A stretch of 64,000 nucleotides of DNA from a bacterium (GTDB lineage Bacteria > UBA8248), in assembly GCA_965261085.1 (NCBI GenBank), contig OZ253442.1, positions 4,160,001 through 4,224,000 on the forward strand, read 5' to 3'. The number at the start of each line of letters is the position of its first letter. Within the stretch, counting starts at the first letter, position 1. The position numbers and the translations under genes are program-made. The notes below the pieces were generated by a model. It was not told the DNA's origin. It made no database searches and saw only the letters and a program-made list of their open reading frames with translations. Positions 1,750 through 32,137 of this stretch are shown piece after piece.

Positions 1750-3123
1750 CTACCCCCCCAGCTTCATGCCGAACTGGCTCGCGATGTGGGTGATGAGCTT
1801 GCCTGCGGCCTCATCGCTCACCCAGCCGCGCGCGGTCGCCGTTTCGAGCGCGGTGCTCACGCGCAAAAGCGCCTGGGATATCTTCTCGGTATCGCGGACG
1901 GATATCTCCGGCATAACGGGGGAGACGCCCGAGCGCAGCGCCTCTTCGGGCAACACGCCCGCGCGGTGGGCTTCCTCTAACTGCTTGTCGGCCATGGCCT
2001 GTAGAATGTGGCGCACGGTGCGCTGGCGGCGCGTCATCTTCTTGAGCGTGGGCTGATCCATCGATTCGGCGGAGGCGCGGTTCACGTCCTCTCCCTGGGC
2101 GAACCAGTGGGAAGGGATGCCCACGCCACCCAGGAGAAGGCCCCGCATCATCTTGGCGATGCCCTGCGCGCCGGTTTCTCCACCTTTCAAATCAGGCGAG
2201 ACGGCCTGCCACTCCTCTTTTTCGTTGTGTACGCGCACGCTCGAGGGCTTGGGCGCGACGCCGTTCTCGGAAAGCCACTCGGCTATCTTCTCGGGGCCTG
2301 CGCCTTTTAAGGTGACGTCGTAGATGAAGCTGTTCTGGAGGCGCGCGCGCTCCACGGCGTCGAAGATGAAGCGCTCATAGGTGTCTATCCAGTCGATGGC
2401 GGCGAGCAGGTCCGATGCCCCGCGAGCGGCGTCACTCGCCTTGTTGATCTGGAACAAAAACGCCTCCCCGTCCGTAAAGCGCGCACGCTCCCTCTGGGCG
2501 GATGCGCTCAGATAACCGCGCGGGTCGCCGCCAAGGACCGTCCTGACCCGCTTGCCCTTGCGCGCCGCCCCGCCCGGTCCTTCGGCGCGCAGGACGACCC
2601 CGATGGGCAAGGCGCAGTTGTCCGGATCCATCACCACCTCTTCTATCAGGCGGGGGCTGACGTAGCCCAGCCGGACGCGCCCCTCGAAGCGCGAGACGGC
2701 GACCGGCAGGAGAAGTTCACCGAAAATGCCGAGTTCAGAGACCAGCCGCTCGAAGCGGATATCCATCTGGTTCACGGGATCGCCCCAGAACGCCTTCACG
2801 ACGCGCAGGGCGCGCTCATCCTCCCCGTGCCAGCTTATTCCCTCGCCCACGACGTGATCGGTCACGATTTCGATCAGGCGCTGGCCCATCAGGTTGGTGA
2901 GCCACAATTCGTGCGCCAAGGCCTGCATGCGCGCGTGCGTGTGGGGAGATACACCGCCCCGCCCCTCACCCAGGGGCCGCCAGATTCTCTCATCCGGATC
3001 TATCTCGGCGCTCATGCGCCCTGAACGCTGCGCGGCCGCTTTCACTCGCGCCGCATCCCCTTTGTTCCCGGATCCCCTCTCCCGCCTGGGAGCCTTCACG
3101 CTCTTTGCTTTCTCCATCTTCAT
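1750..3123 (-). CDS. Phage portal protein
   Basis: About 455 aa directly after terminase; portal-type motifs (IFGELLLPV, RGASDLLAAIDWID, GIPSHWF, VNRASAESM). Real start may be ATG 3117 by RBS spacing. Confidence 0.8.
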   Translation of the reverse strand: MKMEKAKSVKAPRRERGSGNKGDAARVKAAAQRSGRMSAEIDPDERIWRPLGEGRGGVSPHTHARMQALAHELWLTNLMGQRLIEIVTDHVVGEGISWHGEDERALRVVKAFWGDPVNQMDIRFERLVSELGIFGELLLPVAVSRFEGRVRLGYVSPRLIEEVVMDPDNCALPIGVVLRAEGPGGAARKGKRVRTVLGGDPRGYLSASAQRERARFTDGEAFLFQINKASDAARGASDLLAAIDWIDTYERFIFDAVERARLQNSFIYDVTLKGAGPEKIAEWLSENGVAPKPSSVRVHNEKEEWQAVSPDLKGGETGAQGIAKMMRGLLLGGVGIPSHWFAQGEDVNRASAESMDQPTLKKMTRRQRTVRHILQAMADKQLEEAHRAGVLPEEALRSGVSPVMPEISVRDTEKISQALLRVSTALETATARGWVSDEAAGKLITHIASQFGMKLGG

Positions 3124-3767
3124 CTCCTCCTGAGCATCCGCTGATCAAAAGACTGCGGAACCACCGTTCCCCCGGCGAGGGGGGCCAGTATTCCCTCGCT
3201 CCGCGCCAGGGATTCGGCCAGCCGCGCATAGGCGCAGGCGAAGCCGAAGTGGTTCTCGTTTCGCTCATACGCCAGCACCGTCTCCCCGGAGGAGCGGATG
3301 CGCGGCTTTTTCCTCAAATTCATCAGATGACGCTCCACCTCGTTCAGGAGCGCCTCCTCATTGGTGTCCTTTGGATTCGGCAGCAAGACCCGCCCGGCCC
3401 CCTCATGGAACTCCTCCACGAGGTGATCGAGAAGGTCCTCGCGGTTCATCCGCACATGGCGGCGCTCGACGCCCAAAAACGAGACGTCCTTGGTCTGCAT
3501 TTCGCCCTCGGTGTGCCGCCAGATGAAGCCGCCCTCGGGGTTCAAGTCGTACACCGCGCGCGCGGCCTGGGTGTGGGGTCCGCCGTCGACCACGAACGCC
3601 TCCACGCCCAAGCCAGAAAATATCGCGCGGCACCGCTCGATGAGCCGCTCGATGGGCGGCGCCTCAAAATAAATCCACCTGGCGTGCCGGTACTCCCCGC
3701 GCTCGCGCACCGCGACCGCGCAAACATCCCCCGTATCGATACCGCAGAAGCGATGGCGCGCGCTCAT
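3120..3767 (-). CDS. Terminase large subunit, C-terminal nuclease domain as a separate ORF
   Basis: FCGIDTGD, FVVDGGP and ENHFGFACAY RNase H-like terminase motifs; GGAGG-7nt-ATG; ATGA overlap with the upstream ORF. Confidence 0.75.
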   Translation of the reverse strand: MSARHRFCGIDTGDVCAVAVRERGEYRHARWIYFEAPPIERLIERCRAIFSGLGVEAFVVDGGPHTQAARAVYDLNPEGGFIWRHTEGEMQTKDVSFLGVERRHVRMNREDLLDHLVEEFHEGAGRVLLPNPKDTNEEALLNEVERHLMNLRKKPRIRSSGETVLAYERNENHFGFACAYARLAESLARSEGILAPLAGGTVVPQSFDQRMLRRR

Positions 3768-4840
3768 GCGGGCGCCTCCGCCAGGCGATAGGGCGCGGCG
3801 TCGCGCAGCGTTCTGAGCAATTCGCGGGAGATCGGCTGGGTATCGCCCGCATCGGGGGTGGCGAGCGTGGAGCAGCGAAAGCGCGCCTTTTCGCTCGGAA
3901 GACCGGCGGCGGCCCATTTCGCCGTGATCCGATCGAGGCGCACCGCGCCGACCGCAAGCTGGGAGAGGCGATAGCTCCTGTGCCGGGGCTTCACTCGCGC
4001 GGCCTCCCACCGCCCCGCTCCCCTGTCGAGCGCGCCGCCACAGTCCGGGCACGCGAGGCCGCCTGCGCGCAGGATACCGGGCCAGTTCTCCTCCATGACG
4101 CTCTCTTTTCGGCACGCGGGACACCTCACATGCCAGCGCCTCCGGTCCCCGCCCTCGTACATGGCGTGAATGCCCGCGCCGGGGGTTCTCCCCACGGCGA
4201 GATTGAGCGTCAGGGCGAGGGGCGAGGCGTCGATGCGGTCGTTCGACCACTTGAGATTATCCGGCGGGAGATCGTCCACCTCGTCTCTGATCAGGACGTC
4301 GAGCGGAATCGAGATGGCGTTGCCGATGTCCTTGAGACCCAGAATGTACAAAAACCGCGAGCCCCCGCGGCCGGGGAACTCCTTTAAGCCCTTGGGCGAT
4401 GCGCCCCGGTATTTCCCCTCGCGCATGATTGAAGCGATTCTTTCGCCCCTGAGCGCCGGGCGCACGCGCGTCTGATCGAAGCGGTCGGCGAAATCCTGAT
4501 CGGGCAGAAAATAGCCCACGTTCAGGCGGTGGACGATGACGCAGTAAAACGCAAAGCCTATTGCGAGGGTTGTCATGCCCACCTGCGCGCCCTTCAAGAC
4601 GCTGATGGTCTGATCGGGCGTGCGGTTTTTCAGAACTTCATCGAGGACGGCAGTGGGTTCTGAGAGCGCCTCTCTGCCTTCGAAGGTGAACACGCCCTTG
4701 TCGGTCGACATCTCGCTCGCAAGAAATCGCCCCAGCCCGCGCCCCTCCCCCGAAAAGCGCGAAGACCCCCCGGCGGCGAGGACCATGCCGGGCGTTCGGA
4801 TGATTTTTCGGGGCTTGCGCAAAACCGGAACTCCTCCCAC
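3764..4840 (-). CDS. Terminase large subunit ATPase domain (lambda GpA-like)
   Basis: KGAQVGMTT (GpA-type Walker A), LIRDEVD Walker B, GDRRRWHVRCPAC and CPDCG Zn motifs. Start uncertain (4840/4822/4786). Confidence 0.8.
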   Translation of the reverse strand: MGGVPVLRKPRKIIRTPGMVLAAGGSSRFSGEGRGLGRFLASEMSTDKGVFTFEGREALSEPTAVLDEVLKNRTPDQTISVLKGAQVGMTTLAIGFAFYCVIVHRLNVGYFLPDQDFADRFDQTRVRPALRGERIASIMREGKYRGASPKGLKEFPGRGGSRFLYILGLKDIGNAISIPLDVLIRDEVDDLPPDNLKWSNDRIDASPLALTLNLAVGRTPGAGIHAMYEGGDRRRWHVRCPACRKESVMEENWPGILRAGGLACPDCGGALDRGAGRWEAARVKPRHRSYRLSQLAVGAVRLDRITAKWAAAGLPSEKARFRCSTLATPDAGDTQPISRELLRTLRDAAPYRLAEAPA

Positions 4841-4873
4841 TCGAGGATGCCATACGCATCCTCATGGGGGAGG

Positions 4874-4925
4874 AATATAGGGGATGGGACCTGTGAACCT
4901 CGCCGCGCAAATGCGGGGAAATGCG
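4874..4925 (-). promoter_or_regulatory. Shared phage-module promoter, copy A (upstream of terminase)
   Basis: Minus strand CGCATTTCCCCGCAT-N31-TATATT; same spacing as copies at 20404 and 22200. Confidence 0.65.
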
Positions 4926-4935
4926 CGCTCAGGCT

Positions 4936-5421
4936 TTAATCGCGCATGTTCTCGAACTGGAGCGCGAACTTCAGGTTCAGCCCCCGGCAGAGGGACATCA
5001 CCTCCTGGAGGTCGTCCCGCTTCTTGCCGCTCACTCTCAGCTGATCCCCTTGAATCGCGACTTGAACCTTCATTTTCGTCGCCTTCACCTTCTTTACGAT
5101 CTCACGCGCCGCGTCCTGGTCCACCCCTTGCTGCACGATGAGGGTCTGCCTGAGCGCCCCGCCCGAGGCGGATTCCGGCTCCTTGAATTCAATGGCGCGC
5201 AGGTCCACCTTCCGCCTCGTGAAATAGGTGTTCACCAGATCGTGCATCTGCCTGAGCTTGAAGTCATCATCGGCCAGCAGGGTGATGACCTCTTCTTTTC
5301 GCTCCAGCGCGCATTTCGACCCCTTGAAATCGAAACGCTGGGTAATCTCCCGGCGCACGCCGTTGATCGCATTGTCGACTTCCTGTAAATCCGTCCTTGA
5401 AACGATGTCGAATGAAGGCAT
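4936..5421 (-). CDS. yajQ: YajQ family nucleotide/c-di-GMP-binding protein
   Basis: MPSFDIVS...RFDFKGSK...IQGDQLRVSGKKRDDLQ signature. Confidence 0.95.
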   Translation of the reverse strand: MPSFDIVSRTDLQEVDNAINGVRREITQRFDFKGSKCALERKEEVITLLADDDFKLRQMHDLVNTYFTRRKVDLRAIEFKEPESASGGALRQTLIVQQGVDQDAAREIVKKVKATKMKVQVAIQGDQLRVSGKKRDDLQEVMSLCRGLNLKFALQFENMRD

Positions 5422-19278: not shown

Positions 19279-19851
19279 TCACTCGATGCGCTCCTCGAGC
19301 GTTCGCGTTGACTCCTCGACGATTTCGCACACCTTGTCCATCACCTCGGGATGCTCGCGGAAAGATTCGCGCACTTCCTTGACGATCGCCATCTTGGCGG
19401 CGGCGAAGCCATCCTCGTACTGGAGCCTCAGCCGCTCGGCCGATATGCGGCTGCGCTCGAGCGCGTTCACCATCTGCGCGAGTTTCTCGGGCGTCAAGCC
19501 CTCGAAGGATTCTTTCCCCATCTGCGAGACGGCCTCGACCGCCTGGGCCATCAGCATCCGCCGCGCGGCGGCGGCCACCTTCTCGCCCGGGTCCCTGCCC
19601 TCGCCGTCATAGGCCATAACCTCCTCAATCAACTCATCCACCATGGCTTCCACCCGCTTGGTCTTGCGGATGCCCTCGAGCAGGCGGTTGTTGCGCGCGC
19701 CCACGGAGCCGAGCGCTATCTTCTCCCCGGTGGCCTCCTCGAAGGCCTCGGCCACCTCCTTGTAGGTTTTCCCCTCGGCGAGCAGAGGGTCGACGATTTT
19801 CTCGGCGCCATATTCCACTACTTTCGACCTCCGTCCCCGCCTCCTCTCCAT
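19279..19851 (-). CDS. Mu gp27-like (DUF3486) protein, putative small terminase
   Basis: N-terminal GRRSKV...LL...TY.EV...IALGSVGAR HTH followed by helical region; directly follows a gp26-like gene as in Mu-like phages. Confidence 0.7.
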   Translation of the reverse strand: MERRRGRRSKVVEYGAEKIVDPLLAEGKTYKEVAEAFEEATGEKIALGSVGARNNRLLEGIRKTKRVEAMVDELIEEVMAYDGEGRDPGEKVAAAARRMLMAQAVEAVSQMGKESFEGLTPEKLAQMVNALERSRISAERLRLQYEDGFAAAKMAIVKEVRESFREHPEVMDKVCEIVEESTRTLEERIE

Positions 19852-20183
19852 CAGAGATCTCCCACGAGGATGTCTGGAGAGGCGGAGACGGCTCCTTCGA
19901 GCAGGCCGCGCCCCTTGCGGGTCAGGTGCGCCTCATAATCCGTCAACAGGCGCCCGAAACCGCCCGGGGTGCGCTTTTCCACCAAACCCCGCTCCGCCAG
20001 ATCGTCCACGAAGGCCTCGAGCGTCTCACGGCCCAAGGGCGCGCCGTCTTCATGGTGGCCCGCCTCGCGCAGCGCACTCCAAAGGAGAAGGCTGCCCACG
20101 CACGATTTCACCTGAAAGGCTTCCTGATAATAGAGCGTCTTCAATATGTCGCCGCGCAGGACGCGGGCCGCCAACTCGTTCAC
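19851..20183 (-). CDS. Mu gp26-like winged-helix protein
   Basis: RGDILKTL...LAERGLVE...AHLTRKGRGLLEG...PDI pattern; GGAGGT RBS; TGATG overlap with gp27-like gene. Confidence 0.65.
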   Translation of the reverse strand: MNELAARVLRGDILKTLYYQEAFQVKSCVGSLLLWSALREAGHHEDGAPLGRETLEAFVDDLAERGLVEKRTPGGFGRLLTDYEAHLTRKGRGLLEGAVSASPDILVGDL

Positions 20184-20403: not shown

Positions 20404-20455
20404 AATATAGAACGCGGCGCAGGTTCGGGCGGCACGGAAAATGCGGGGAAATGCG
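20404..20455 (-). promoter_or_regulatory. Shared phage-module promoter, copy B (upstream of gp26/gp27-like genes)
   Basis: CGCATTTCCCCGCAT-N31-TATATT; motif identical to copy A. Confidence 0.65.
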
Positions 20456-20518
20456 GACTCGGGCGCGTTGAGAAAAGAATTTCGGAGTTGCACAATGCCG
20501 CCAGAGGAGGAGGCTTCG

Positions 20519-20939: not shown

Positions 20940-21362
20940 TCACCGCGTCTTTCCCGTCAATTTCTCGACGGTGCGAAGCGCGCCCAGACCCAGCATCCCC
21001 AGGGTGAGTTCCAACAATCCCTCCGCCGAGACGGGATAGGGCACGAGCTCACCGCTCATCAGCACCTGCCGCGTCCAGAGCCATGCGCCCAGGGCGTACT
21101 GGGGGATGAAGTAAAAGGCGAGCGAGACGCCGCAGGTCCACAGGATGAACGGCCTGCCCCCGGCGACGAAGGCGCTTCGGTGGGCGGCCTCTATCTTGTT
21201 GATCTCGTTCTGGGCTTCGGCGGGGCGCATCATCAGCTTTTGTTTTATCGCCTCCGCCGCGCGTCTCTCATCAGGCGTCTCGACGAACTTGTCGATGACG
21301 TTGGCGACACCCTCCGCCGCCGTGATGACGCCGCCGCCGATGAGGTTTTCCAAAAAGGCCAT
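20940..21362 (-). CDS. 3TM-type holin (GTA_holin_3TM/DUF3154-like)
   Basis: IDKF...EIN..EA.H.S.FVAG.RPFI.W...LGMLGLG.LRT.EK..G signature; TGATG overlap with lysozyme. Confidence 0.82.
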   Translation of the reverse strand: MAFLENLIGGGVITAAEGVANVIDKFVETPDERRAAEAIKQKLMMRPAEAQNEINKIEAAHRSAFVAGGRPFILWTCGVSLAFYFIPQYALGAWLWTRQVLMSGELVPYPVSAEGLLELTLGMLGLGALRTVEKLTGKTR

Positions 21363-21775
21363 CACGCGCTCCTCATGCTCTCGGCGACCCTGCCCGCCCG
21401 GGCCGGCAGTTCCCTCGCGTAATCGGAATCGAGCGCCTCCACAGCCGCGCGCTCGTAATCGCCCTCTCTCAGCGCGGCCCACATTCTCTTGAAACCCAGA
21501 AGGCTCGGCACGCCCATGTTGTAGGCCATGTTCAAAACCGCGCGCTGCGCGAGGGGTCTCAGATTTTTATACACCTCGCCGACGCGGGAGCGCTCGAGTT
21601 CTCCGGCCATCAGGCCGAGCCGATGCCGGAGGAGCAGTTCCGCTTCGGCTTGCGATATGCCGTCTTCCAGCAGCGTTCCGTAGCCGATGGTCTTCTTGCG
21701 CTTGCCGTCGAGATACACTTTCGCGACGAAACCCTCCTCGCGCTTGATATCCTCTACGAGTTCGTCCGTGAGCAT
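21362..21775 (-). CDS. Phage lysozyme (GH24 endolysin)
   Basis: EEG...Y.D......TIGYG, NMAYNMG...L.GF..M..AL, A.E.LDS.YA...RA.R. Confidence 0.88.
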   Translation of the reverse strand: MLTDELVEDIKREEGFVAKVYLDGKRKKTIGYGTLLEDGISQAEAELLLRHRLGLMAGELERSRVGEVYKNLRPLAQRAVLNMAYNMGVPSLLGFKRMWAALREGDYERAAVEALDSDYARELPARAGRVAESMRSA

Positions 21776-21993
21776 CCCTCACCCTCCCCTTCAGGCAAGT
21801 CCCCGGCCTCACCCACCTCTTGCATCAGTCGCCGGAGCGCCGCCGCGCCCTTTCGAGCGCTCGCACGATGCGCATAGGCCTGGCTCGACGCCAGGATGCG
21901 TCCGTTCCTCGCTCGCACACGGAAGCGATGCCGCCCGGATTTATCCCTGAAAATATCGACGGGGCGATATTTGGCTCTCTTTACGGCCTGCAT
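21754..21993 (-). CDS. YegP/DUF1508 family protein
   Basis: FRDKSGRHRFRVRARNGRILASSQAY. Confidence 0.8.
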   Translation of the reverse strand: MQAVKRAKYRPVDIFRDKSGRHRFRVRARNGRILASSQAYAHRASARKGAAALRRLMQEVGEAGDLPEGEGEGCSRTNS

Positions 21994-22130
21994 ACGAAAC
22001 CCCCCAGGAAAAAGCCCAACACCACGAGGCATGCGCCCGCAACGATCAGGCGCAAGACAGTGCGCTTTCCCCCAGCCCAGCGCGATAGCATGGCGTCCGT
22101 TTTTCCTTCGAATTCATTTTTCTCAGACAT
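21981..22130 (-). CDS. 49-aa single-TM protein, first gene of lysis cassette (not in ORF track)
   Basis: GAGG RBS; MSEKNEFEGKTDAMLSRWAGGKRTVLRLIVAGACLVVLGFFLGGFVCRP; overlaps the next gene start. Confidence 0.6.
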   Translation of the reverse strand: MSEKNEFEGKTDAMLSRWAGGKRTVLRLIVAGACLVVLGFFLGGFVCRP

Positions 22131-22199: not shown

Positions 22200-22261
22200 A
22201 GTTTATGTCTTGATAGCGCGCGCCCTATGACGGAAAATGCGGGCAACTGCGGGGTGATGCG
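22200..22261 (-). promoter_or_regulatory. Shared phage-module promoter, copy C (upstream of lysis cassette)
   Basis: CGCAT-CACCC-CGCAG-TTGCC-CGCAT-N31-TAAACT: three repeats at 10-bp period, same spacing to the -10 box. Confidence 0.6.
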
Positions 22262-23409: not shown

Positions 23410-23568
23410 CACCGAGAATCACGACAAATCGAGCCGATCATGGACTTAACAAACCGCACCATCTGGAACTTCCGCCTAGCAAGGAATATAATCCATATTT
23501 AAGCAAATTCATCGACCAAATAGATCAGAAAGTGGTCGAGAAGCATTTCAACACCTAGGATCAATAAT

Positions 23569-25255: not shown

Positions 25256-25329
25256 CCAAACCTACGTGTTAGCCAGTAAAAAATACTTAACGCATCGCCT
25301 CGCCGCCGCATTTCGCAAAGGGTCACGCC

Positions 25330-26181
25330 ATGGCGAAAAGACGCACAAGATATCTTCTCATCAGATCACTCCTCATCGCCGCCCTGGGCGTCTGCTTTGT
25401 GAGCGTCCCTCGCGCGAATGCCAGAGAATGCTCCTTTGGCCCCTACACCGGACGCTGCCGCGACATCCGGCTCATGCGCTCGGTCAAGGGCGACGCGGAA
25501 AAACTCGTCTCGGCGCTCTCGATCCTCTGGGTCGAGGCGGGTTATCTCTCGACAGATGAGGCGAGCGATTTACACCAAAGGATAGACGCAGGGATTAAAG
25601 CCGTGGAGAAGTTTCTTGACCTTCCGTTCTCACGCGCGGCCTACGGGCAGGAGAAAATCGAGTTCTTCGTCCACGGCAGGCGTGCTCCTTCGCACACCAT
25701 CACGGCCTACAGCCCGCGAAAATACATGCACCCCGTCGTGTTCCTCTCCTTCGCCAAAGAAGGGAGATCGCCCTATCTGCATGAGACGGTCCACGTCATC
25801 GCGTGGGATTGGAACACCCTTTGGCTGAAAGAAGGACTGGCCGTTCACTTGAACGATCGCTTAAGCGGCTACGCCGCCTTTCCCAATTTCGGCGAATCAA
25901 TCGACGCTTTCGCCGGCCGGGTGTTGAGACGCGAGTTCCCTCCCGCGATAGAGGCGCTCGATCTGGTGGGCGAAAACGGCATCCCCAGATTCGAGGACAG
26001 GCGCGTTCGGCGCATGTTCTACATTCTCGCGGGCTCCTACGCCGGCTATCTCCTGCGCGAGTGGGGCGTCAAAAAACTCATGCGGGTCTACGCCGCAAAG
26101 GACACCAATGCCGCGATTCAAAAAGAGACGGGAAAACCCGCCTGGCGATGGAAGGAGGCATGGCTGGGTGAGGTGAGGTAG
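25330..26181 (+). CDS. Secreted HExxH (peptidase MA-like) protein
   Basis: Signal peptide; LHETVH...WLKEGLA gluzincin pattern. Confidence 0.65.
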   Translation: MAKRRTRYLLIRSLLIAALGVCFVSVPRANARECSFGPYTGRCRDIRLMRSVKGDAEKLVSALSILWVEAGYLSTDEASDLHQRIDAGIKAVEKFLDLPFSRAAYGQEKIEFFVHGRRAPSHTITAYSPRKYMHPVVFLSFAKEGRSPYLHETVHVIAWDWNTLWLKEGLAVHLNDRLSGYAAFPNFGESIDAFAGRVLRREFPPAIEALDLVGENGIPRFEDRRVRRMFYILAGSYAGYLLREWGVKKLMRVYAAKDTNAAIQKETGKPAWRWKEAWLGEVR

Positions 26182-26259
26182 ATTCTTTGGCGTCTGTTGT
26201 GTGGGAATGGTAGCAAAACCGGTAAAGACCTTACATTGACGACATAAAATCAAAACAGA

Positions 26260-27192
26260 TCATTTTAAGTCGTAAAATTTTAGAGCTGACTCAGTCAATA
26301 ATCGCGTCGCGACCGAAACGCCAACTTTCCATGTACCGTTTGCCGCTTTTTTTATGTTTTCGGCAAACCATTCTTTCGCCTTTGCTCCAAATGGTTCCTC
26401 TGCGCTCCCCGACTCCTCGGTCGAGAGGATATCGGCAAATTCTTCCATATCGGCTTGTGGCAGACCTTTGGACACAAGAAATTCGACGAAAGCATCTTTG
26501 TCATCTTTGCCAATGGAGACGCTAAGATTGGCTCCTTCGCCATAGTTTGTAACTGAAGTTAGATTACCGACATCACCGTGAATAGTTTGATTGTAAATCT
26601 GAGTCACCTTCTCTGCGCTCCCCATATCGGACTTTCCGGGCTTTTCAAGACTAACTTCAGCAGCAACTGGTACAGATTTCTCAAGCTGAATGGTTAATTC
26701 GAGCACCCGAACTCGAACCGCGTGCTGAATTTCCACGAGTGCTGCGCGCGATACAGTACCTACGACGCTATTACAAGCATAACCTTCATAGATCTTGCCC
26801 TGTAAAAATAGAATCAGATTGGACGCATCGATTTGCAAGGATCCATTATCAGGCGATCTTCCGATGAGGTCATCAATTGCAGCGACATTTAGTCTAATTT
26901 CGAAATCCGTCCATTTGTCGCCAGCGAATTTTTCGACGAGGTATCCAGGTATCGGAACGTTCCTAAGTTCACTTCCGAAAGGACCAAAGAACGTCCCACG
27001 ATACGAAACGGGGATTCTACGATAATCTGGAAGTTCCACGCCTTCCGGATAGCCTTCCGACTCGTATTTCACCCATTCTTCCAAAGGGCCGCTTCCAAGC
27101 CTCGCCGCAAGTAGGCGCAACTTGAGAAGAATGGGCGCAATACTCTGTTCGCTTTCAATGATGGATGTCTGTATGTCGCGAAGTAGGCTCAT
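26260..27192 (-). CDS. AbiTii-domain protein
   Basis: N-terminal L..IQ.......ILLK..LLA..L....L.EWV..E..GY......PDYR motif; low GC. Confidence 0.75.
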   Translation of the reverse strand: MSLLRDIQTSIIESEQSIAPILLKLRLLAARLGSGPLEEWVKYESEGYPEGVELPDYRRIPVSYRGTFFGPFGSELRNVPIPGYLVEKFAGDKWTDFEIRLNVAAIDDLIGRSPDNGSLQIDASNLILFLQGKIYEGYACNSVVGTVSRAALVEIQHAVRVRVLELTIQLEKSVPVAAEVSLEKPGKSDMGSAEKVTQIYNQTIHGDVGNLTSVTNYGEGANLSVSIGKDDKDAFVEFLVSKGLPQADMEEFADILSTEESGSAEEPFGAKAKEWFAENIKKAANGTWKVGVSVATRLLTESALKFYDLK

Positions 27193-27290
27193 TGGTGTCT
27201 AGCAATGGGCGAGGAAACTCGGTAACCCAAAACCTAAAGGCGGTAAGATAGTAAGTCAATCGGAGTTATAATCTCCCCGCTATACTCCTA

Positions 27291-27325
27291 GTAGACGAAG
27301 GGCGGTTCACGAACCGCCCCTACGG
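27291..27325 (-). repeat. REP-like palindrome (GTAG type)
   Basis: Minus strand GTAGGGGCGGTTCGTGAACCGCCCT. Confidence 0.7.
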
Positions 27326-27451
27326 ATGAGATTGACTCCTGCATTCGTCGGTGGCGGTGAAATTTCGAGGTTGGGTATCGTGCCCGTGAGGCTGTTGTCG
27401 CCGCAAGTTTCCCACGTGCGAATTGTCCAGCCCGAAACAACCGGGCAAAAG

Positions 27452-27481
27452 AAAAGCCCCCCGGGTTTCTCCGGGAGGCTT
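27452..27481 (-). terminator. Intrinsic terminator, copy 1
   Basis: AAGCCTCCCGGAGAAACCCGGGGGGCTTTT. Confidence 0.8.
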
Positions 27482-27502
27482 GATTTCGTTTCAGGCTTGC
27501 TG

Positions 27503-27538
27503 CTAGAAGCCGGGGTCCTCGTCGTGTGTATGAAACAT
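27503..27538 (-). CDS. 11-aa peptide MFHTHDEDPGF
   Basis: AGGAG-8nt-ATG...TAG; conserved second copy at 29032-29067. Confidence 0.6.
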   Translation of the reverse strand: MFHTHDEDPGF

Positions 27539-27588
27539 CGCTTGGTCTCCTTTCAGCGGCTAGGTAATTACAAAACCACCTAAGTGGT

Positions 27589-28197
27589 TCAATTATCCCA
27601 TTTCCGGCATAGATTTTCAAGACCTTTATATAGTCGGTTGCCCCTTCGGTTTCTCAGGTCCGCAATCCACGGCTCGAATACGTCATAGTAGCGTAAAACA
27701 TTTGTCTGGAACAGTTCGCGAATGATGTCTTCGTTGACGAAGCCTTTATCGACCAACACCGCCAAGTCTTCCAGGTAATTCAAAACATTCGTAATGTTCA
27801 GTTCCAGAATGTCATCGCCTTTGATTTTCTCTTGTATAATCCTCAGCCTCTCCTCCCTCGGTTTGGCGGCTATGGGTTTTATTAGCCCGATGACGGCTTT
27901 TTTAGAGTCGAAAAAACTTGCGGTATTCCATTCGGAGGTAAGAGACATCGTGCGGGTCATTTGCTCGGATTCCACATTCGCATAAACGCTTTGAGCAATG
28001 TAAAAAGCGCTGACGATCGCGGCTGCGGCGCCAACGGCAATGGCGATAAACGTCGCCAACTCCTTATGGGCAGGCAAGAAGAAATGCACGCCGACTATCA
28101 AGCCGACGAAGATGATGGCGACCACGCCAATATGAACCGTGAACCTGCGCTCGAATTTAAGATTGAAATCGAATGCTTTGGAAAAATCTCTCGCCAA
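27589..28197 (-). CDS. DUF4760-like membrane-anchored protein
   Basis: Two N-terminal TMs; VLNYLEDLAVLV..G...E.I...F....L......PWI...R......Y..LE.L...W; GGAGGT RBS with TTG start. Confidence 0.75.
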   Translation of the reverse strand: MARDFSKAFDFNLKFERRFTVHIGVVAIIFVGLIVGVHFFLPAHKELATFIAIAVGAAAAIVSAFYIAQSVYANVESEQMTRTMSLTSEWNTASFFDSKKAVIGLIKPIAAKPREERLRIIQEKIKGDDILELNITNVLNYLEDLAVLVDKGFVNEDIIRELFQTNVLRYYDVFEPWIADLRNRRGNRLYKGLENLCRKWDN

Positions 28198-28233
28198 TTT
28201 CAGACCTCCACGCGAACTCGACCACCCTTCGAT

Positions 28234-28302
28234 TCACTTGGGGTCCCCTGGCGACTCGTTTGAGTGGTTAAACGTTCGCCAAATATACCTCTTTCCACTC
28301 AT
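28234..28302 (-). CDS. 22-aa peptide MSGKRYIWRTFNHSNESPGDPK
   Basis: GAGGT-6nt-ATG; shares F-x3-[DN]-E-x-P-G with the 11-aa peptides. Confidence 0.45.
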   Translation of the reverse strand: MSGKRYIWRTFNHSNESPGDPK

Positions 28303-28428
28303 ATCTCAACCTCATCCTGCATTGCTCCGCCCGGTAGTGATGAAAGGGTTTCTTGCTTCCCCTCCTCGGTCGAAAGCGCAGGCTTCCCCTCCTCGGGAAA
28401 GCCTGACCTGATCAGTCGGAATCGACCC

Positions 28429-28809
28429 CTACTCCCGCATCCCGCCGAATTTCCATTCCAGATCGATCGGAAAATCCTCCTGCATCTTCTCGACGTAGGC
28501 GAGCACGTCCTCGCGGCGAAAGCGCGCGCTCTTAAACGAGGGATGGTTCTCGGGCTGGCGGACGCCGGCGCGCGGGGGCGGGCGGCGCAGATAGACGGGC
28601 CGGAGGCAGGGCGCATCGCTCGAGCAGTCCTCGGCGATGATGGCGTCGAGCGTGCGGTAGCTCTTATAGCCGAGCACCTTGGCGAGCATGGGTTTGGTGA
28701 GAAACGCTTCTTCCTCGAGAATCCGGCGCGGCGTTCTCGGGTCGGGCGGGGCCTGTTTCTTGCTCCTCTCGCGCCTCTCGCTCCCTCGGGTATTCTTTGC
28801 GGGCGGCAT
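28429..28809 (-). CDS. Xis/MerR-like (HTH_17-type) DNA-binding protein, copy 1
   Basis: FLTKPMLAKVLGYKSYRTL...ARFRREDVLAYV; GAGG RBS. Confidence 0.65.
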   Translation of the reverse strand: MPPAKNTRGSERRERSKKQAPPDPRTPRRILEEEAFLTKPMLAKVLGYKSYRTLDAIIAEDCSSDAPCLRPVYLRRPPPRAGVRQPENHPSFKSARFRREDVLAYVEKMQEDFPIDLEWKFGGMRE

Positions 28810-28979
28810 CAGCAAAGCGCCTCGGCGAGCGGGAGGACGGACACGTCGTGGCGGGATACTCGTAACAGAGACTTTATCAACATAAGCCGGAGGGGGCGGA
28901 TACGTCAATTCATGAAGCGGGGAGATAGCGTATCGAATTCCCGGCGAGGATTGTCCGCCCGAGATGACCGAACCTAAAG

Positions 28980-29009
28980 AAAAGCCCCCCGGGTTTCCCC
29001 GGGAGGCTT
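28980..29009 (-). terminator. Intrinsic terminator, copy 2
   Basis: AAGCCTCCCGGGGAAACCCGGGGGGCTTTT. Confidence 0.8.
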
Positions 29010-29031
29010 TATTTCGTTTCAGGCTCCATTG

Positions 29032-29067
29032 CTAGAAGCCGGGGTCCTCGTCGAGTGTATGGAACAT
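29032..29067 (-). CDS. 11-aa peptide MFHTLDEDPGF
   Basis: TAAGGAG RBS overlapping the upstream stop codon, 8-nt spacer. Confidence 0.6.
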   Translation of the reverse strand: MFHTLDEDPGF

Positions 29068-29079
29068 CGCTCGTTCTCC

Positions 29080-29652
29080 TTAGTATAGATGATGTCCTCT
29101 GGCTTTCGCGGTGGCGAGTTCGACATTGAGCAGTTCAATTCTTTCCCTGGCTACGCTCAAACTCTTGAGCATTTTCTCACGCGCTCTCAGATAAATGGCG
29201 ATGACACCAACGACCGCTATCGTCATCGGAGAAATCAGGACCATGTGCGCCGCCATGATTTTAGATATTTCACTTCTGAACGCATAAATTCTGTTTCTCG
29301 TCTCTTCGTTTTCGATGCGCTCGGTCCGCTCCCGCCATTCGGCGTAGTCGTTCGCTACATGTGAATTCCCGGAACGCGCGAGGCTGACCATGCTCATGAC
29401 GATTCTCCAGATCGTAACGCGGTGCCCGTAACGAATCAGCGCATTGATGAGCAGCCTGAGGTCCGTATATGCGGGATGGGTGAACTCTAAGTGGCCTGCG
29501 TTCGCGTATTCAAACAATTCATCCCTGAGCTTGAACAGTCTTTGCCTGAAATAATCGACGCGGTACGGAATCCAGAACTGATACCAAATCAGCCAGGCGA
29601 TGAACAACACCAAGCAGAACCTCAAGACGTGAAGAGCGTCTTCTCCAATCAT
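29080..29652 (-). CDS. Hypothetical membrane protein
   Basis: N- and C-terminal hydrophobic segments; YRVD.FRQRLF.LRDELF...HPAY..LR..IN..IR; GGAGG RBS. Confidence 0.7.
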   Translation of the reverse strand: MIGEDALHVLRFCLVLFIAWLIWYQFWIPYRVDYFRQRLFKLRDELFEYANAGHLEFTHPAYTDLRLLINALIRYGHRVTIWRIVMSMVSLARSGNSHVANDYAEWRERTERIENEETRNRIYAFRSEISKIMAAHMVLISPMTIAVVGVIAIYLRAREKMLKSLSVARERIELLNVELATAKARGHHLY

Positions 29653-29656
29653 TCGT

Positions 29657-30058
29657 CTAATCCTCCGGCCTGGATTGACCCTGTCGGGTGAGGCGGCTGG
29701 AATTGCGATTCGCGTCTATCAATTTCTCATACTTTTCACGGATATCGTGAAATTGCTCTATCGTTTTTCGCCTGAGAGACCTCTCAAATCGCCATCCCAC
29801 AAGAGCGATAATCAACGCAAGGACCAGAAAACCTTCCAGCTTCCCGGAAACAACGCGGGCTATCGCCTTGATTCCAATATCGAGTATTGTTGATTTGCCT
29901 GCAATGGAGTCTAGCGCAAGATAGATGAACCAAACAATAACCGTCAAAAACACCCATTTTGTTTGGGAAATCGTATGGTGCCATATATCGAGTTTTCGAT
30001 TCTGGATGAGGAAATCGCGCTGTTCCTGACGCTCACGAGGTGACGGTCGTCTGCTCAT
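29657..30058 (-). CDS. Hypothetical 2-TM protein
   Basis: Two TMs then RRKTIE...EK.ID.NR.SS.LT..G..RPED. Start may extend to 30124. Confidence 0.65.
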   Translation of the reverse strand: MSRRPSPRERQEQRDFLIQNRKLDIWHHTISQTKWVFLTVIVWFIYLALDSIAGKSTILDIGIKAIARVVSGKLEGFLVLALIIALVGWRFERSLRRKTIEQFHDIREKYEKLIDANRNSSRLTRQGQSRPED

Positions 30059-30169
30059 AACTTTCTCAGTGACGCATGATCCTCGTGGTGCAATATTCAT
30101 AGAACATCCGATGAATCCATGCAACTCGCTTTGGCATAAAGCGATGCCTCCCCTCCCCGTCGGAACTGC

Positions 30170-30550
30170 CTACTCCCGCATCCCGCCGAATTTCCATTCC
30201 AGATCGAGCGGAAAATCCTCCTGCATCTTCTCGACGTAGGAGAGCACGTCCTCGCGGCGAAAGCGCGCGCTCTTAAACGAGGGATGGTTCTCGGGCTGTT
30301 TGACGCCGGCGCGCGGGGGCGGGCGGCGCAGATAGACGGGCCGGAGGCAGGGCGCGTCGCTCGAGCAATCCTCGGCGATGATGGCGTCGAGCGTGCGGTA
30401 GCTCTTATAGCCGAGCACCTTGGCGAGCATGGGTTTGGTGAGAAACGCTTCTTCCTCGAGAATCCGGCGCGGGGTTCTCGGGTCGGGCGGGGCCTGTTTC
30501 TTGCTCCTCTCGCGCCTCTTGCGCCCTCGGGTATTCTTTGCGGGCGGCAT
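30170..30550 (-). CDS. Xis/MerR-like DNA-binding protein, copy 2
   Basis: About 10 nt and 5 aa differences from copy 1 by manual comparison; TGATG-coupled to the upstream gene. Confidence 0.65.
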   Translation of the reverse strand: MPPAKNTRGRKRRERSKKQAPPDPRTPRRILEEEAFLTKPMLAKVLGYKSYRTLDAIIAEDCSSDAPCLRPVYLRRPPPRAGVKQPENHPSFKSARFRREDVLSYVEKMQEDFPLDLEWKFGGMRE

Positions 30551-30831
30551 CAGCAAAGCGCCTCGGTGAGCGGGGTGACGGACACGTCGCGGCGGCGGGC
30601 TCTCTTGGCCCGGACGAGCGCATCGGCGCGCGCTCGCGCGGAGGCGAGATTCGGGAAGATGAGACTCACGCGCCTCTCGCGGGTGAGATCGCGGTAGACG
30701 AGCAGTGCGGCTTCTTCGGGCACGCCGAAGCCCTCATCCATGAGATCGGAGAGCGTGCGCTCATGGGTTCCGATGAAAGAGGCGGCCTCGTTCATGACGT
30801 ACCTCCCGGACATGCGCATGGTGATTCGCAT
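30550..30831 (-). CDS. Hypothetical phage-like early protein
   Basis: AAGGAGG RBS; coupled to the HTH gene. Confidence 0.65.
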   Translation of the reverse strand: MRITMRMSGRYVMNEAASFIGTHERTLSDLMDEGFGVPEEAALLVYRDLTRERRVSLIFPNLASARARADALVRAKRARRRDVSVTPLTEALC

Positions 30832-31141
30832 GGCGCCTCCTTGATGAGAAGTGATACATGCCCGGATGACCCGCGTGGTCTTGAAGGTGCAATGGACTCG
30901 GAAGGGGGCGCCTCGCGGGCGGTTCGAGGCGCCGTTTTCGGTGGGGAAGATGGTGGGGTGTCGCGGGACGGATCATCCGGGCAAGCTGAATTCCTGAAAA
31001 TATCGATAAATTTAGATAAATTGACGGGGTTTTTCGATAAATTCATGGAATTTCCTTTTTTCTTCATAAAGTCAATAATATCAATCAAATAACTCATTCA
31101 TCCGTTTGTGTGCGATCTGCTCGTTCGCACATCAAGCACCC

Positions 31142-31172
31142 TGAATATATCTATATATATTCATATTGTCAA
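31142..31172 (-). promoter_or_regulatory. Near-consensus sigma70 promoter overlapped by a palindromic operator
   Basis: TTGACA-N17-TATATT; TGAATATAT-ctat-ATATATTCA inverted repeat at 31142-31163. Confidence 0.7.
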
Positions 31173-31252
31173 TAAAAATATATATAAATAATTATATCTG
31201 GAGGTATGTCCGTACAAACTATTGATAGGAAAGGAGTTGCGGAAAGGTTGCG

Positions 31253-32137
31253 CTAGTCGATATCCCTGCCCAGAAGCTCGATGAAGCGCTTTACGCCGCC
31301 GTGGAGCTGCTTGTCGCGTCTGTGGATGAGACCCAGGGGCCGGATGATGCGCTCCCCCTCGAAGGGCAGCACCGCCAGCGTGTTCATGGCCCTTTCGTTG
31401 TGAACGGCCGAGCCGGGCAGAATGCTCACCCAGGTGTCGATGAAGAGCGCCTCTTTGATGCTCTCCACGTTGTCGAACTCCATCACGACGTCCACGCTCA
31501 CGCCCGCTTTGCGCAAGACCCTGTCTATGGCGTTGCGAATGGAGAGATCGCCGTCGAACGCCACGAAGGGCTCCCCCGCGAGGTCGGAAACCCTTACCGC
31601 GTGGCGAAAGGCAAGTTGATGCCCCGGATGAGAGACGAAGAACATGGGCTCATCCTTGAAGGGCACGACCCGCAGCGCCTTGTCGCGCGGGGGGTAGGAG
31701 AGAATCCCGACGTCGGCCGTATCGTCCAGAACCGATTGCACCACCTTCTCCGGATGCAGACATTCCAGACGAACCCGCGCCTGGGGATACAGGGTGCGGA
31801 ACCGCTGCATGTAAGCGCCCATCTGGTGAAGACCCACCGAGTAGATGGCGGCGACGCGCACCTGCCCATGCACCTCGCCGATGCCGTGTGATATCTCCGC
31901 GCAGACCTGGTCGAATTCCCCCAGCATCTTGCGGCAAGCCTCATAAAACCGGGCGCCTTCTTCGGTGATGCCGAAAGGCCGCTTGCTCCTGTCGAGCAGC
32001 TCGACGCTCAAATCCCCCTCGAGCTGGCGAAGCGCCTGACTCGCTGCGGACTGGGTCACGCCGCTTTGGGCGGCTCCCTTGGAAAAACTTCTCTCCTGGA
32101 TGATGCGGCAATAGAGCCGCAAGGTCTCGATGTTCAT
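31253..32137 (-). CDS. LysR family regulator divergent from gltBD
   Basis: SFSKGA...TQSAASQ..RQLE..L...LLDR; MEFDNVESIK. Confidence 0.93.
   Translation of the reverse strand: MNIETLRLYCRIIQERSFSKGAAQSGVTQSAASQALRQLEGDLSVELLDRSKRPFGITEEGARFYEACRKMLGEFDQVCAEISHGIGEVHGQVRVAAIYSVGLHQMGAYMQRFRTLYPQARVRLECLHPEKVVQSVLDDTADVGILSYPPRDKALRVVPFKDEPMFFVSHPGHQLAFRHAVRVSDLAGEPFVAFDGDLSIRNAIDRVLRKAGVSVDVVMEFDNVESIKEALFIDTWVSILPGSAVHNERAMNTLAVLPFEGERIIRPLGLIHRRDKQLHGGVKRFIELLGRDID

What the first reader, a model, noticed from the sequence alone, without database searches (positions are those of the whole stretch)
1750..31256. Dispersed, colinear Mu-like phage modules interleaved with host genes: candidate domesticated GTA-like system
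Seen: four phage-type modules, all on the minus strand and in phage order: early HTH genes (30831-28429), lysis (22130-20940), gp26/gp27-like (20183-19279), terminase plus portal (4840-1750). They are separated by host genes; about 14 kb (yajQ, amtB, cyclase, ABC, CocE) lies between gp27 and TerL. The ORFs look intact, have RBSs and coupled overlaps, and have host-like GC. No integrase, Mu transposase, capsid or tail gene is in the window. Known: lysis-gp26-gp27-TerL-portal is contiguous in Mu-like phages, and GTAs such as RcGTA are split over several loci. Inference: a phage-derived packaging/lysis system kept by the host, with remaining modules elsewhere in the genome.
Basis: partly seen in the sequence, partly recalled or inferred. 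Interest (0 to 1): 0.9.

Follow-up and report, generated by a model that had tools for sequence, protein, structure and literature searches.

The report
Scattered, host-kept phage particle genes
An uncultured bacterial lineage has kept the lysis, DNA-packaging, head and tail genes of an ancient Mu-like phage, scattered among its own genes and wired to one shared promoter, which looks like a new, independently evolved gene-transfer-agent-like system.

Summary
The modules are real. Pfam/PHROG confirm holin, endolysin, a gp27/TerS-like gene, large terminase and portal on the minus strand in Mu-like order. Two corrections: the terminase is two coupled genes (ATPase 3764-4840, nuclease 3120-3767, ATGA overlap), and the "early HTH" block is unconfirmed and partly a strain-specific island.

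The predicted missing modules exist. A protease-capsid fusion, neck and tail-tube module lies 7-13 kb left of the window. A tail module with a probable tape measure lies about 260 kb away.

Six markers occur in the same 20 of 22 genus species and are absent together in G009 and G010, whose host backbone is intact. Pairwise dN/dS is 0.05-0.39, like flanking host genes. Six transcription units carry one 20-bp direct-repeat promoter motif.

Best reading: a domesticated Mu-like siphophage making DNA-packaging particles, GTA-like. Particles, cargo and transfer are untested.

The parts
1750..3123 (-). portal protein gene (457 aa)
   Evidence: phrog_10963, 2.2e-46. 39% identity to the portal-position gene of Mu-like Microcystis phage Mae-JY22. 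Found in 20 of 22 genus species at 83-96% identity. dN/dS 0.09-0.21.
3120..3767 (-). TerL nuclease-domain gene (215 aa), a separate ORF starting at ATG 3767
   Evidence: Matches phrog_675 positions 354-547. ATGA overlap with the ATPase gene, with GGAGG 7 nt upstream. Motifs FCGIDTGD, DGGPH and NHFGFA are kept in 23-24 of 24 loci. dN/dS 0.12-0.25.
3764..4840 (-). TerL ATPase-domain gene (up to 358 aa; the true start may be the in-frame TTG at 4822)
   Evidence: PF05876, 8.4e-18; phrog_675 positions 26-341. Walker A LKGAQVG[ML]TT and Walker B RDEVDD are kept in 23 of 23 aligned loci. dN/dS 0.17-0.26.
4874..4925 (-). promoter of the TerL/portal unit: 20-bp direct-repeat motif (4906-4925), 26-nt spacer, TATATT (4874-4879)
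   Evidence: Exact copy of CGCATTTCCCCGCATTTGCG. Same position with at most 1 mismatch in 19 of 24 related loci. Invariant block in the 7-genome alignment.
19279..19851 (-). gp27-like / small-terminase-like gene (190 aa)
   Evidence: PF11985 at 27.5 bits (cut-off 28); phrog_426, 1.3e-7. Found in 20 of 22 genus species. dN/dS 0.12-0.33.
19851..20183 (-). gp26-position gene (110 aa), function unknown
   Evidence: No family hit. Conserved at 83-98% in 4 of 6 genus genomes and 73% in G048. dN/dS 0.05-0.18.
20404..20455 (-). promoter of the gp26-gp27 unit: motif with 2 mismatches (20436-20455), 26 nt, TATATT
   Evidence: An equivalent site lies upstream of gp26 in G021 (coordinates).
20940..21482 (-). 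holin (3-TM type); the true start is probably internal
   Evidence: PF11351, 9.2e-12; phrog_3427, 1.3e-23. dN/dS 0.15-0.30.
21362..21775 (-). endolysin (phage lysozyme)
   Evidence: PF00959, 7.8e-10; phrog_7, 3.6e-16. dN/dS 0.20-0.26.
21754..22130 (-). DUF1508 gene (21754-22032) and a 49-aa ORF (21981-22130) at the head of the lysis unit
   Evidence: PF07411, 2.9e-10. dN/dS 0.37-0.47 and 0.23-0.34. Detected in only 3 of 6 genus genomes.
22200..22261 (-). degenerate copy of the promoter motif upstream of the lysis unit
   Evidence: Two overlapping copies with 4 mismatches each, and a weak -10. Better copies occur at the same place in G002, G021, G007 and G001.
30170..30831 (-). two small conserved genes (93 aa and 128 aa), candidate DNA-binding regulators of the element
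   Evidence: No Pfam or PHROG hit. The 128-aa gene is in 20 of 22 genus species and is absent exactly where the modules are absent. dN/dS 0.12-0.42. The excisionase/MerR-like helix-turn-helix is my reading; the AlphaFold model is poor, pLDDT 50.
30832..31252 (-). conserved leader / regulatory region of the two small genes
   Evidence: Contains TTGACA-N17-TATATT, three AATTTATC[GT]A boxes and a long inverted repeat, all conserved in 5 genomes. Holds one copy (31015-31041, + strand) of a 27-nt core repeated 74 times in the genome.
28429..28908 (-). extra paralogue of the 128-aa gene, inside a strain-specific island
   Evidence: 95% identical second match in G000 only. Both ORFs hit one locus in relatives.

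Best explanation
This is what remains of a Mu-like siphophage that entered the chromosome of an ancestor of this bacterial family. MAG records of the lineage are labelled Nitrospinota, Nitrospinaceae or Candidatus Tectomicrobia. The element has been domesticated. Only the late functions survive:
- lysis (holin, endolysin);
- packaging (gp27/TerS-like gene, a two-piece large terminase, portal);
- head (protease-scaffold-capsid fusion);
- neck, tail tube, chaperone-position gene, a probable tape measure and about seven distal tail genes;
- two small, possibly DNA-binding genes.

In this genome they form at least five loci separated by host operons: 3.886-3.894 Mb, 4.147-4.153 Mb, and window 1.7-4.9 kb, 19.3-22.3 kb and 30.2-31.3 kb.

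Proposed working. An unidentified activator recognises the 20-bp direct repeat CGCATTT[C/G]CCCGCATTTGC[C/G]. The repeat sits 26 nt upstream of a -10 box, with no -35, in front of six units: capsid, terminase/portal, gp26-27, lysis, distal tail and tape measure. These units are switched on together in some cells. Heads and tails assemble. The TerS-like protein and the ATPase plus nuclease halves of terminase fill heads through the portal. Holin and endolysin release the particles.

The gene set spans about 300 kb and has no recognisable transposase or replication genes, so the particles cannot carry the element itself. They would carry host DNA, as gene transfer agents do.

Shown: homology of the parts, dispersal, vertical conservation, purifying selection, joint loss, shared promoter motif.
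Inferred: co-regulation, particle formation, DNA cargo, transfer.
For: Families.

Missing modules found. The head, neck and tube module is at G000 4147046-4152619(-), through homology to Mae-JY22. The tail module T1-T8 is at 3886622-3894208(+), found behind two copies of the promoter motif. In three other genera its homologues lie directly after tube and chaperone, in the order tape measure - T1 - T2 - T3 - T4. T8 looks like tape-measure families in the protein atlas and gives a weak tblastn hit to a phage tape measure.

Synteny. The same interleaved order occurs in 5 of 6 complete genus genomes. The sixth, G011, breaks after amtB. TerL and portal lie between the same host genes in the genus loci among 24 independent records.

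Selection. dN/dS is 0.05-0.33 for portal, both TerL halves, capsid, tube, gp27, gp26, holin and lysozyme; up to 0.57 for the gp10-like gene; and 0.08-0.39 for T1-T4. Host flanks give 0.06-0.39, and dS is similar.

Phyletic pattern. Portal, capsid, gp27, the 128-aa gene, T3 and T8 each occur in the same 20 of 22 genus species. In the family, counting G000: portal 32 of 42 at E<=1e-10 (rows), capsid 34 of 42, gp27 33 of 42, the 128-aa gene 33 of 42, T3 32 of 42.

Joint loss. G009 and G010 keep the host backbone (cofE, DAC through LLM, amtB through CocE, LysR, gltB; G010 also x913), but none of the module genes was detected there; G010 keeps short low-identity remnants. Their gltB identity to G000 is 85% and 91%, which suggests two separate losses. 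G047, the four small genomes of genus g22, and G054 also lack the markers or keep only remnants.

Promoter. In 84 kb around the window, the only 5 matches with up to 5 mismatches (4 sites; two copies overlap) all lie upstream of modules on the coding strand. The site before TerL is kept in 19 of 24 loci.

Terminase. Catalytic motifs and the coupled junction are conserved.

No close free-phage relative. One phage record out of 50,697 matches the portal, at 39%. IMG/VR gives none.
Against: - No particle, cargo or transfer data exist.
- RNA evidence is weak. Short metatranscriptome contigs at 90-99% likeness cover parts of portal and TerL as well as host genes. They may be DNA carry-over or come from relatives.
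- A split terminase could be a crippled one, and I found no described precedent.
- The distal tail genes have no recognisable phage family. 8 tail/head families gave 0 hits. tblastn gave none for T1 and T3. PDB sequence searches gave nothing. The T3 model was poor. The tail assignment therefore rests on synteny plus atlas look-alikes.
- A MuF-type head protein was not found.
- The promoter motif is not specific to the element. There are 80 sites genome-wide with up to 3 mismatches, many inside short dispersed repeats.
- Some lineages show decay: portal in pieces in G016 and G023, TerL fragmented in G048, partial marker sets in G049, G056 and G057. Some of this may be assembly error.
- The absence of a transposase rests on tblastn with the ORFs of two Mu-like phages. 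The Pfam search for it had a silent control.
Confidence: 0.6

Rival explanations
1. The element makes phage-like particles that the host keeps for a purpose other than gene transfer. Examples would be killing competitors, releasing DNA or cell contents by controlled lysis of a subpopulation, or acting as decoys against related phages.
For: The same conservation, joint loss and shared-promoter evidence applies. None of it speaks to cargo or to uptake by recipients. Tail-tip homologues in one genus are fused to LamG-type binding domains (4 of the 42 hits), which would suit any adsorbing particle.
Against: Bacteriocin-type particles known to me (recalled) lack capsid, portal and terminase. Here these packaging genes are among the best conserved: portal dN/dS 0.09-0.21, and the terminase catalytic motifs are invariant. 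That argues that filling heads with DNA matters.
Confidence: 0.17
2. The modules are retained independently. Each gene or small group has been co-opted for a separate cellular job, and no particle is made.
For: The modules are physically separate and the gaps differ between genera. The promoter motif also drives many unrelated sites. TerL is fragmented in G048 while capsid and portal look intact there.
Against: Six markers from five loci are present or absent together in the 22 genus species. They are lost together in at least two genus lineages with the backbone intact. The retained set is exactly a morphogenesis, packaging and lysis set.
Confidence: 0.1
3. It is still a selfish element: a defective or satellite-like phage that spreads with the help of an unseen helper phage, or an inducible prophage scrambled only in appearance.
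For: Lysis and packaging genes are complete. The TerS-like gene could recognise a specific site. Dispersed repeats sharing sequence with the element's regulatory region exist only in genomes that have the element.
Against: The loci span about 300 kb in G000 and up to about 1.7 Mb in G008. No transposase, integrase or replication gene was found. The element sits at the same chromosomal sites across a family, with host-like dS. No close relative occurs in phage or viral-contig collections.
Confidence: 0.05
4. It is a decaying fossil prophage with no present function, or an assembly artefact.
For: There are broken copies in a few species (G016, G023, G048) and some in-frame stops in matches.
Against: dN/dS is 0.05-0.39 at dS up to about 1. 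Frames are open in 19-20 species. Identical junctions recur in many independent assemblies, including single-contig genomes.
Confidence: 0.03

Closest known systems
RcGTA of Rhodobacter capsulatus (multilocus gene transfer agent; PMC5026251, abstract and outline read)
   Same: Phage-derived head, tail and lysis genes kept by the host, distributed over about five loci, widespread by descent in a host clade and unable to carry all their own genes. The holin here falls in the Pfam family named after the GTA holin (PF11351).
   Different: The origin is independent. The portal has no Pfam match. The capsid is PF25209 fused to a protease. The terminase is GpA-type and split in two. The ancestor is Mu-like. 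The host is a Nitrospinota/Tectomicrobia-type lineage, not an alphaproteobacterium. The regulator is unknown; the RcGTA regulators GafA and CtrA are recalled or seen only in a listing. Function is untested here.
Mu-like transposable siphophages: Microcystis phage Mae-JY22 (PP438414.1) and Rhodobacter phage RC1 (NC_020839.1)
   Same: Gene order is lysis - small genes - DUF3486/gp27 - TerL - portal - head - neck - tube - tape measure - tail tip. Identity to Mae-JY22 is 39% for portal, 33% for the protease-capsid fusion and 30-32% for neck proteins. The tube is about 30% identical to that of RC1.
   Different: No homologue of their transposase, MuB, Gam or early genes was found by tblastn. No MuF-type head protein was found. 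The modules are separated by host operons, and TerL is unsplit in Mae-JY22 (520 aa). The element here is fixed in the chromosome and inherited vertically.
   Same: Independent domestications of tailed phages into DNA-packaging particles.
   Different: None is, to my recollection, Mu-derived, found in this phylum, or equipped with a two-gene terminase. No sequence comparison was made here.
Capsid-forming phage satellites (cf-PICI); recalled
   Same: A reduced set of head and packaging genes without a full phage genome.
   Different: Satellites are compact, mobile islands with an integrase and depend on helper tails. This element is dispersed, immobile at conserved loci and has its own tube and tail genes.

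Membership tests
Gene transfer agent (functional class) | Phage-derived structural genes inherited vertically under purifying selection | tested here: met
   Conserved synteny. dN/dS 0.05-0.39 with host-like dS. 20 of 22 genus species carry the markers.
Gene transfer agent (functional class) | Particles are produced and released by lysis | not testable with these tools
   Holin and endolysin genes are present and conserved. No particle data exist.
Gene transfer agent (functional class) | Particles package host DNA, and less DNA than is needed to encode the system | not testable with these tools
   There is only an indirect argument. The loci span about 300 kb in G000, far beyond any siphophage head.
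Gene transfer agent (functional class) | No genes for autonomous replication, transposition or integration | tested here: inconclusive
   None was recognised in the window or the head locus. There was no tblastn hit to the transposase or MuB ORFs of RC1 or Mae-JY22. The PF09299 search found nothing, but its control was silent.
Gene transfer agent (functional class) | Expression under cellular control, coordinated across loci | tested here: inconclusive
   A shared motif precedes six units and also occurs at about 75 other sites. The regulator is unknown. RNA contigs are not decisive.
RcGTA-like family (by homology) | HK97-type portal, capsid and terminase homologous to RcGTA genes | tested here: not met
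   The portal has no Pfam hit. The capsid is PF25209. The terminase is PF05876. Only the holin shares a family, PF11351.
Mu-like transposable phage (as a living phage) | DDE transposase A and MuB, Gam, and an early region | tested here: not met
   There was no match to those ORFs of RC1 or Mae-JY22 in the genome. None is in the window.
Mu-like transposable phage (as ancestor) | Late-region order lysis - gp26 - gp27(DUF3486) - TerL - portal - head - tail, with sequence similarity | tested here: met
   Order. Portal 39% and capsid fusion 33% to Mae-JY22. gp27 family at 27.5 bits against a cut-off of 28.
Tailocin / phage-tail bacteriocin | Tail genes without capsid, portal or terminase | tested here: not met
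   Capsid, portal and terminase are present and conserved.
Phage satellite (PICI-type) | Compact mobile island with integrase at variable sites | tested here: not met
   The element is dispersed over at least 5 loci at conserved chromosomal sites, and no integrase was recognised.

The most novel reading that the evidence does not exclude
The system has reshaped the host chromosome for its own use. Two dispersed elements are involved. One is the 20-bp promoter motif, with 28-92 copies per genome. The other is a linked 27-nt core, with 74 copies in G000; one copy sits in the leader of the element's own regulator genes, near what would be the Mu-type left end. Both are found in genomes that carry the particle genes and are absent from the two genus genomes that lost them. 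On this reading they are functional parts of the system. They would be regulator-binding cassettes, or seeded packaging-initiation (pac-like) sites that let the TerS-like protein and the two-piece terminase start headful packaging all around the chromosome. That would make this a GTA whose cargo is set by dispersed recognition sites rather than by loss of specificity.
Probability: 0.15. Interest if true: 0.9.

Novelty: new variant of a known kind. Interest (0 to 1): 0.8.

Why it matters
Only a handful of independent phage-to-GTA domestications are known (recalled). I found none reported for Nitrospinota or Tectomicrobia: the search 'gene transfer agent' + 'Tectomicrobia' gave 0 papers, and 'gene transfer agent' + 'Nitrospin' gave 4 papers that look incidental from title and abstract start.

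If this system makes particles, three things follow.
- It adds a Mu-derived case in an uncultured lineage that has many complete genomes. That lets domestication be followed step by step: contiguous late region in some genera, progressive interleaving with host operons, relocation of the tail module, splitting of the terminase, change of promoter motif between genera, and all-or-none loss.
- It gives a natural test of whether a large terminase works as separate ATPase and nuclease chains.
- It offers a sequence handle (promoter motif plus marker genes) for finding similar hidden systems that prophage finders miss because no locus looks like a prophage.

Tried and rejected
Tail search by known families. 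PF10145, PF13550, PF05709, PF20155 and phrog_9483, 11439, 11633, plus the MuF family phrog_2468, gave 0 matches in the genome. For phrog_11439 and phrog_11633 the controls were silent too, so those two say nothing.

tblastn of every ORF of at least 80 aa from Mae-JY22, RC1 and Alteromonas phage P24 hit, among phage-structural genes, only the already known modules; other hits were to SSB, HU-like, helicase and methylase-type genes.

Large minus-strand ORFs up to 65 kb beyond the tube are host genes.

The tail module was finally found through the promoter motif and through synteny in G048.

tblastn of T1 and T3 against phages gave nothing. PDB sequence searches of T1, T4 and T8 gave nothing meaningful.

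AlphaFold models of T3 (pLDDT 53.5, 15 sequences) and of the 128-aa gene (pLDDT 50.4, 5 sequences) were too poor for a fold search, so none was run. The HTH claim and the tail-tip fold remain open.

Motif sites. None of the 80 lies upstream of a tRNA. 12 sampled sites gave no Rfam match.

RNA. The laid metatranscriptome contigs left the gp27/lysis part almost uncovered and covered TerL and portal thinly. I draw nothing from the uncovered parts. The covered parts do not prove transcription.

The PF09299 (Mu transposase) search was uninformative because its control was silent.

Literature. The searches found no report of a GTA in this lineage and none of a two-gene large terminase. Supplementary files were not consulted. 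Only PMC5026251 was opened (abstract and outline); other papers were seen as listings only.

Rejected ideas. A frameshift error in TerL is contradicted by the same junction in 17 of 24 independent loci. A misassembly is contradicted. A housekeeping UP-element reading of the motif is contradicted by 0 copies in G009, G010 and other genera.

Full report
**What is in the window.** The window is G000:C1:4160001-4224000 of a 4.27-Mb single-contig genome. Related records are MAGs labelled Nitrospinota, Nitrospinaceae, Candidatus Tectomicrobia or simply 'bacterium'.

On the minus strand, Pfam and PHROG confirm these genes:

| Gene | Coordinates | Evidence |
|---|---|---|
| Portal | 1750-3123 | phrog_10963, 2.2e-46 |
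| Large terminase | 3120-4840 | PF05876; phrog_675 |
| gp27/DUF3486-like, TerS-like | 19279-19851 | PF11985 27.5 bits vs cut-off 28; phrog_426 |
| 3-TM holin | 20940-21482 | PF11351; phrog_3427 |
| Lysozyme | 21362-21775 | PF00959 |
| DUF1508 gene | 21754-22032 | PF07411 |

Between them lie ordinary host genes: yajQ, amtB, a HAMP-cyclase, an ABC transporter, an M24 peptidase and two S15 peptidases. The rest of the window is host metabolism plus two small islands.

The order lysis - gp26 - gp27 - TerL - portal is that of Mu-like siphophages such as Microcystis phage Mae-JY22 and Rhodobacter phage RC1. Mae-JY22 is the only phage record of 50,697 that matches the portal, at 39%.

**Corrections to the observation.**
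- The terminase is two genes. The ATPase ORF ends, and the nuclease ORF begins, in ATGA at 3764-3767, with GGAGG 7 nt upstream.
- The same junction stands in 17 of 24 related loci. The Walker A and B motifs, the zinc-ribbon cysteines and three nuclease motifs are kept in 23-24 of 24.
- One distant relative has a fused 661-aa gene. Others are split differently.
- The 'early HTH' block is only partly real. 29080-30124 is absent from relatives, and 28429-28908 is a duplicate. Only 30170-30831 is conserved. No family search supports an HTH, and the model was poor.
- ORFs 20180-20884 and 22225-23094 behave as non-genes. 22360-22890(+) is a host glycine-zipper lipoprotein gene.

**The missing modules.** tblastn with the 61 Mae-JY22 proteins hit, besides the portal, four structural genes just left of the window. 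That locus, G000 4147046-4152619 on the minus strand, encodes:
- a 726-aa protease-scaffold-capsid fusion (PF25209, 2.3e-44; phrog_4523, phrog_133);
- an adaptor-position gene;
- an HK97-gp10-like neck protein (PF04883);
- a further neck protein;
- a tail tube (PF18906).

A conserved 130-aa gene follows in the chaperone position. It is the only capsid of that family in the genome. Nine kilobases of host genes separate it from the portal: a DisA-type cyclase, a deaminase, dehydrogenase-like genes and two luciferase-like monooxygenases.

Known tail families were not found anywhere. The promoter motif described below led to a plus-strand run of eight genes, T1-T8, at 3886622-3894208. In three other genera, homologues of T8, T1, T2, T3 and T4 lie directly behind tube and chaperone, in the phage position of tape measure and tail tip. 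T8 resembles tape-measure families in the protein atlas (22 of the 30 listed hits belong to sets with tape-measure families; scores 0.92-0.94). T1 resembles a viral cluster (score 0.98). T3 relatives exist only in this clade, and 4 of the 42 hits are fused to LamG domains.

**Inheritance and selection.**
- The interleaved order tube..capsid | DAC..x913 | portal-TerL | yajQ-amtB-cyclase(-ABC-CocE) | gp27-gp26-holin-lysozyme | ... | two small genes | LysR-gltB recurs in 5 of 6 complete genus genomes. G011 is rearranged after amtB. The host blocks vary in content.
- TerL and portal lie between the same host genes in the genus loci among 24 records.
- Pairwise dN/dS against six species is 0.05-0.33 for portal, both TerL halves, capsid, tube, gp27, gp26, holin and lysozyme. 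It is up to 0.57 for the gp10-like gene and 0.08-0.39 for T1-T4. Host neighbours give 0.06-0.39 at similar dS.
- In the family, portal, capsid, gp27, the 128-aa gene and T3 occur in 32, 34, 33, 33 and 32 of 42 genomes (rows).
- In the genus, all six markers, including T8, occur in the same 20 of 22 species.
- G009 and G010 lack all six. Their chromosomes keep the host backbone: the cof genes, DAC through LLM (plus x913 in G010), amtB through CocE, and LysR-gltB. None of the module genes was detected at their places; G010 keeps short low-identity remnants.
- gltB identity is 91% for G010 and 85% for G009, which suggests two separate losses.
- G047, four small genomes of genus g22, and G054 also lack the markers or keep only remnants.

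Results against a tidy picture: the portal is broken in G016 and G023; TerL is fragmented in G048, where portal and capsid are only 1.3 kb apart; and marker sets are partial in G049, G056 and G057, which are fragmented assemblies.

**Shared promoter.** Alignments of the upstream regions showed one invariant block before both the capsid gene and TerL: CGCATTT[C/G]CCCGCATTTGCG, then 26 nt, then TAGATT or TATATT, with no -35.
- In 84 kb around the window, the only matches with up to 5 mismatches are upstream of the capsid (exact), TerL (exact), gp26 (2 mismatches) and the lysis genes (two overlapping copies, 4 mismatches each). All are on the coding strand.
- Further copies precede T1 and T8.
- The TerL site is kept in 19 of 24 loci. 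G020 has a diverged copy. Other genera have a different direct repeat at that place.
- The motif is not private to the element. G000 has 80 sites with up to 3 mismatches, against about 0.25 expected by my calculation. Many lie in short repeats.
- Per genome, with up to 1 mismatch, there are 28-92 copies in 18 of 22 genus species, 3 and 2 in G016 and G020, none in G009 and G010, and 0-1 in other genera.
- A 27-nt core (74 copies in G000) lies 80-340 nt downstream of 39 motif sites. One copy lies in the leader of the two small genes.
- The repeat family is abundant in G008 and G002 and missing at the orthologous site in G010, G009 and G007.

**Other evidence.**
- Sixteen runs from 9 studies (kind not on record for most) hold 69-77% of the sampled words of the TerL-portal stretch.
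- Metatranscriptome contigs cover parts of it thinly.
- The TerL leader has a hairpin with 3 compensated pairs.
- No close relative of the portal is in IMG/VR.

**Interpretation.** The facts fit a domesticated Mu-like siphophage whose late genes are kept as a coordinated, host-inherited particle system. RcGTA is the closest analogue: 24 genes in five loci (PMC5026251, abstract). Homology to RcGTA is limited to the holin family, so this is an independent case.

Co-regulation, particle formation, DNA cargo and transfer are inferences. I put 0.6 on a DNA-packaging, GTA-like system. I put about 0.17 on particles with another use, 0.1 on separate co-options, and less on selfish or fossil readings.

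Noticed in passing
genome-wide; window 4906-4925, 20436-20455, 22232-22251 and 31015-31041: A 20-bp direct-repeat promoter motif (80 sites in G000) and a linked 27-nt core (74 copies) form short dispersed repeats. The motif is abundant in 18 of 22 genus genomes and has no copies in the two genomes that lost the phage-derived modules. Other genera have none or one. At one sampled site the repeat is an insertion relative to G010, G009 and G007. No tRNA or Rfam family lies downstream.
   Followed up: partly
window 932-1689: A PIN-domain gene (PF01850, 3.3e-5) with an upstream 88-aa ORF, resembling a VapBC pair, sits right after the portal. It is present in only some species at this spot, for example 1 of the 6 complete genomes (G001).
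   Followed up: partly
window 18000-19250: A low-GC stretch (0.43) with small ORFs that have no counterpart in 5 of 6 relatives. It is a strain-specific insertion between the CocE genes and gp27. One ORF reads like a HicB-type antitoxin by eye only.
   Followed up: partly
window 23500-30150: A variable low-GC island. It carries an N6/N4 DNA methylase (23569-24540), ORFs matching PHROGs of unknown function, and a duplicate of the 128-aa gene. Its content differs in every relative examined.
   Followed up: partly
window 39504-42001: A DNA methylase with a weak Mrr-like C-terminus lies next to an IS1595-family transposase, in another GC dip.
   Followed up: no
window 4936-5421 and loci L012, L015, L017, L019-L022, L030, L031: The host gene yajQ (DUF520) next to TerL is reduced to fragments in many species, while the adjacent terminase and portal stay intact.
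   Followed up: partly
window 4828-4880: The leader of the terminase ATPase gene holds a conserved hairpin (18 pairs, 3 with compensatory changes). Its outer arm pairs with the GGAGG before the likely TTG start at 4822, so it may control translation or serve as an operator.
   Followed up: partly
L034 12620-12880 (G000 4152620-4152880): The capsid promoter shares a 260-bp divergent intergenic region with a DisA-type diadenylate cyclase gene in every genus genome examined. In genus g2 this cyclase also lies between capsid and portal.
   Followed up: no
G048:C1 3125718-3152862 (loci L058-L060): In another genus, portal and capsid are 1.3 kb apart. TerL lies 10 kb away in at least three pieces, and the tail genes are still contiguous with the tube. 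This is a different and partly decayed layout of the same element.
   Followed up: partly
G041-G044: In genus g17 the protease-capsid gene matches as two stretches (about aa 12-247 and 281-726), within one 668-707-aa open frame in three of the four genomes, so the linker between the two parts has diverged.
   Followed up: no
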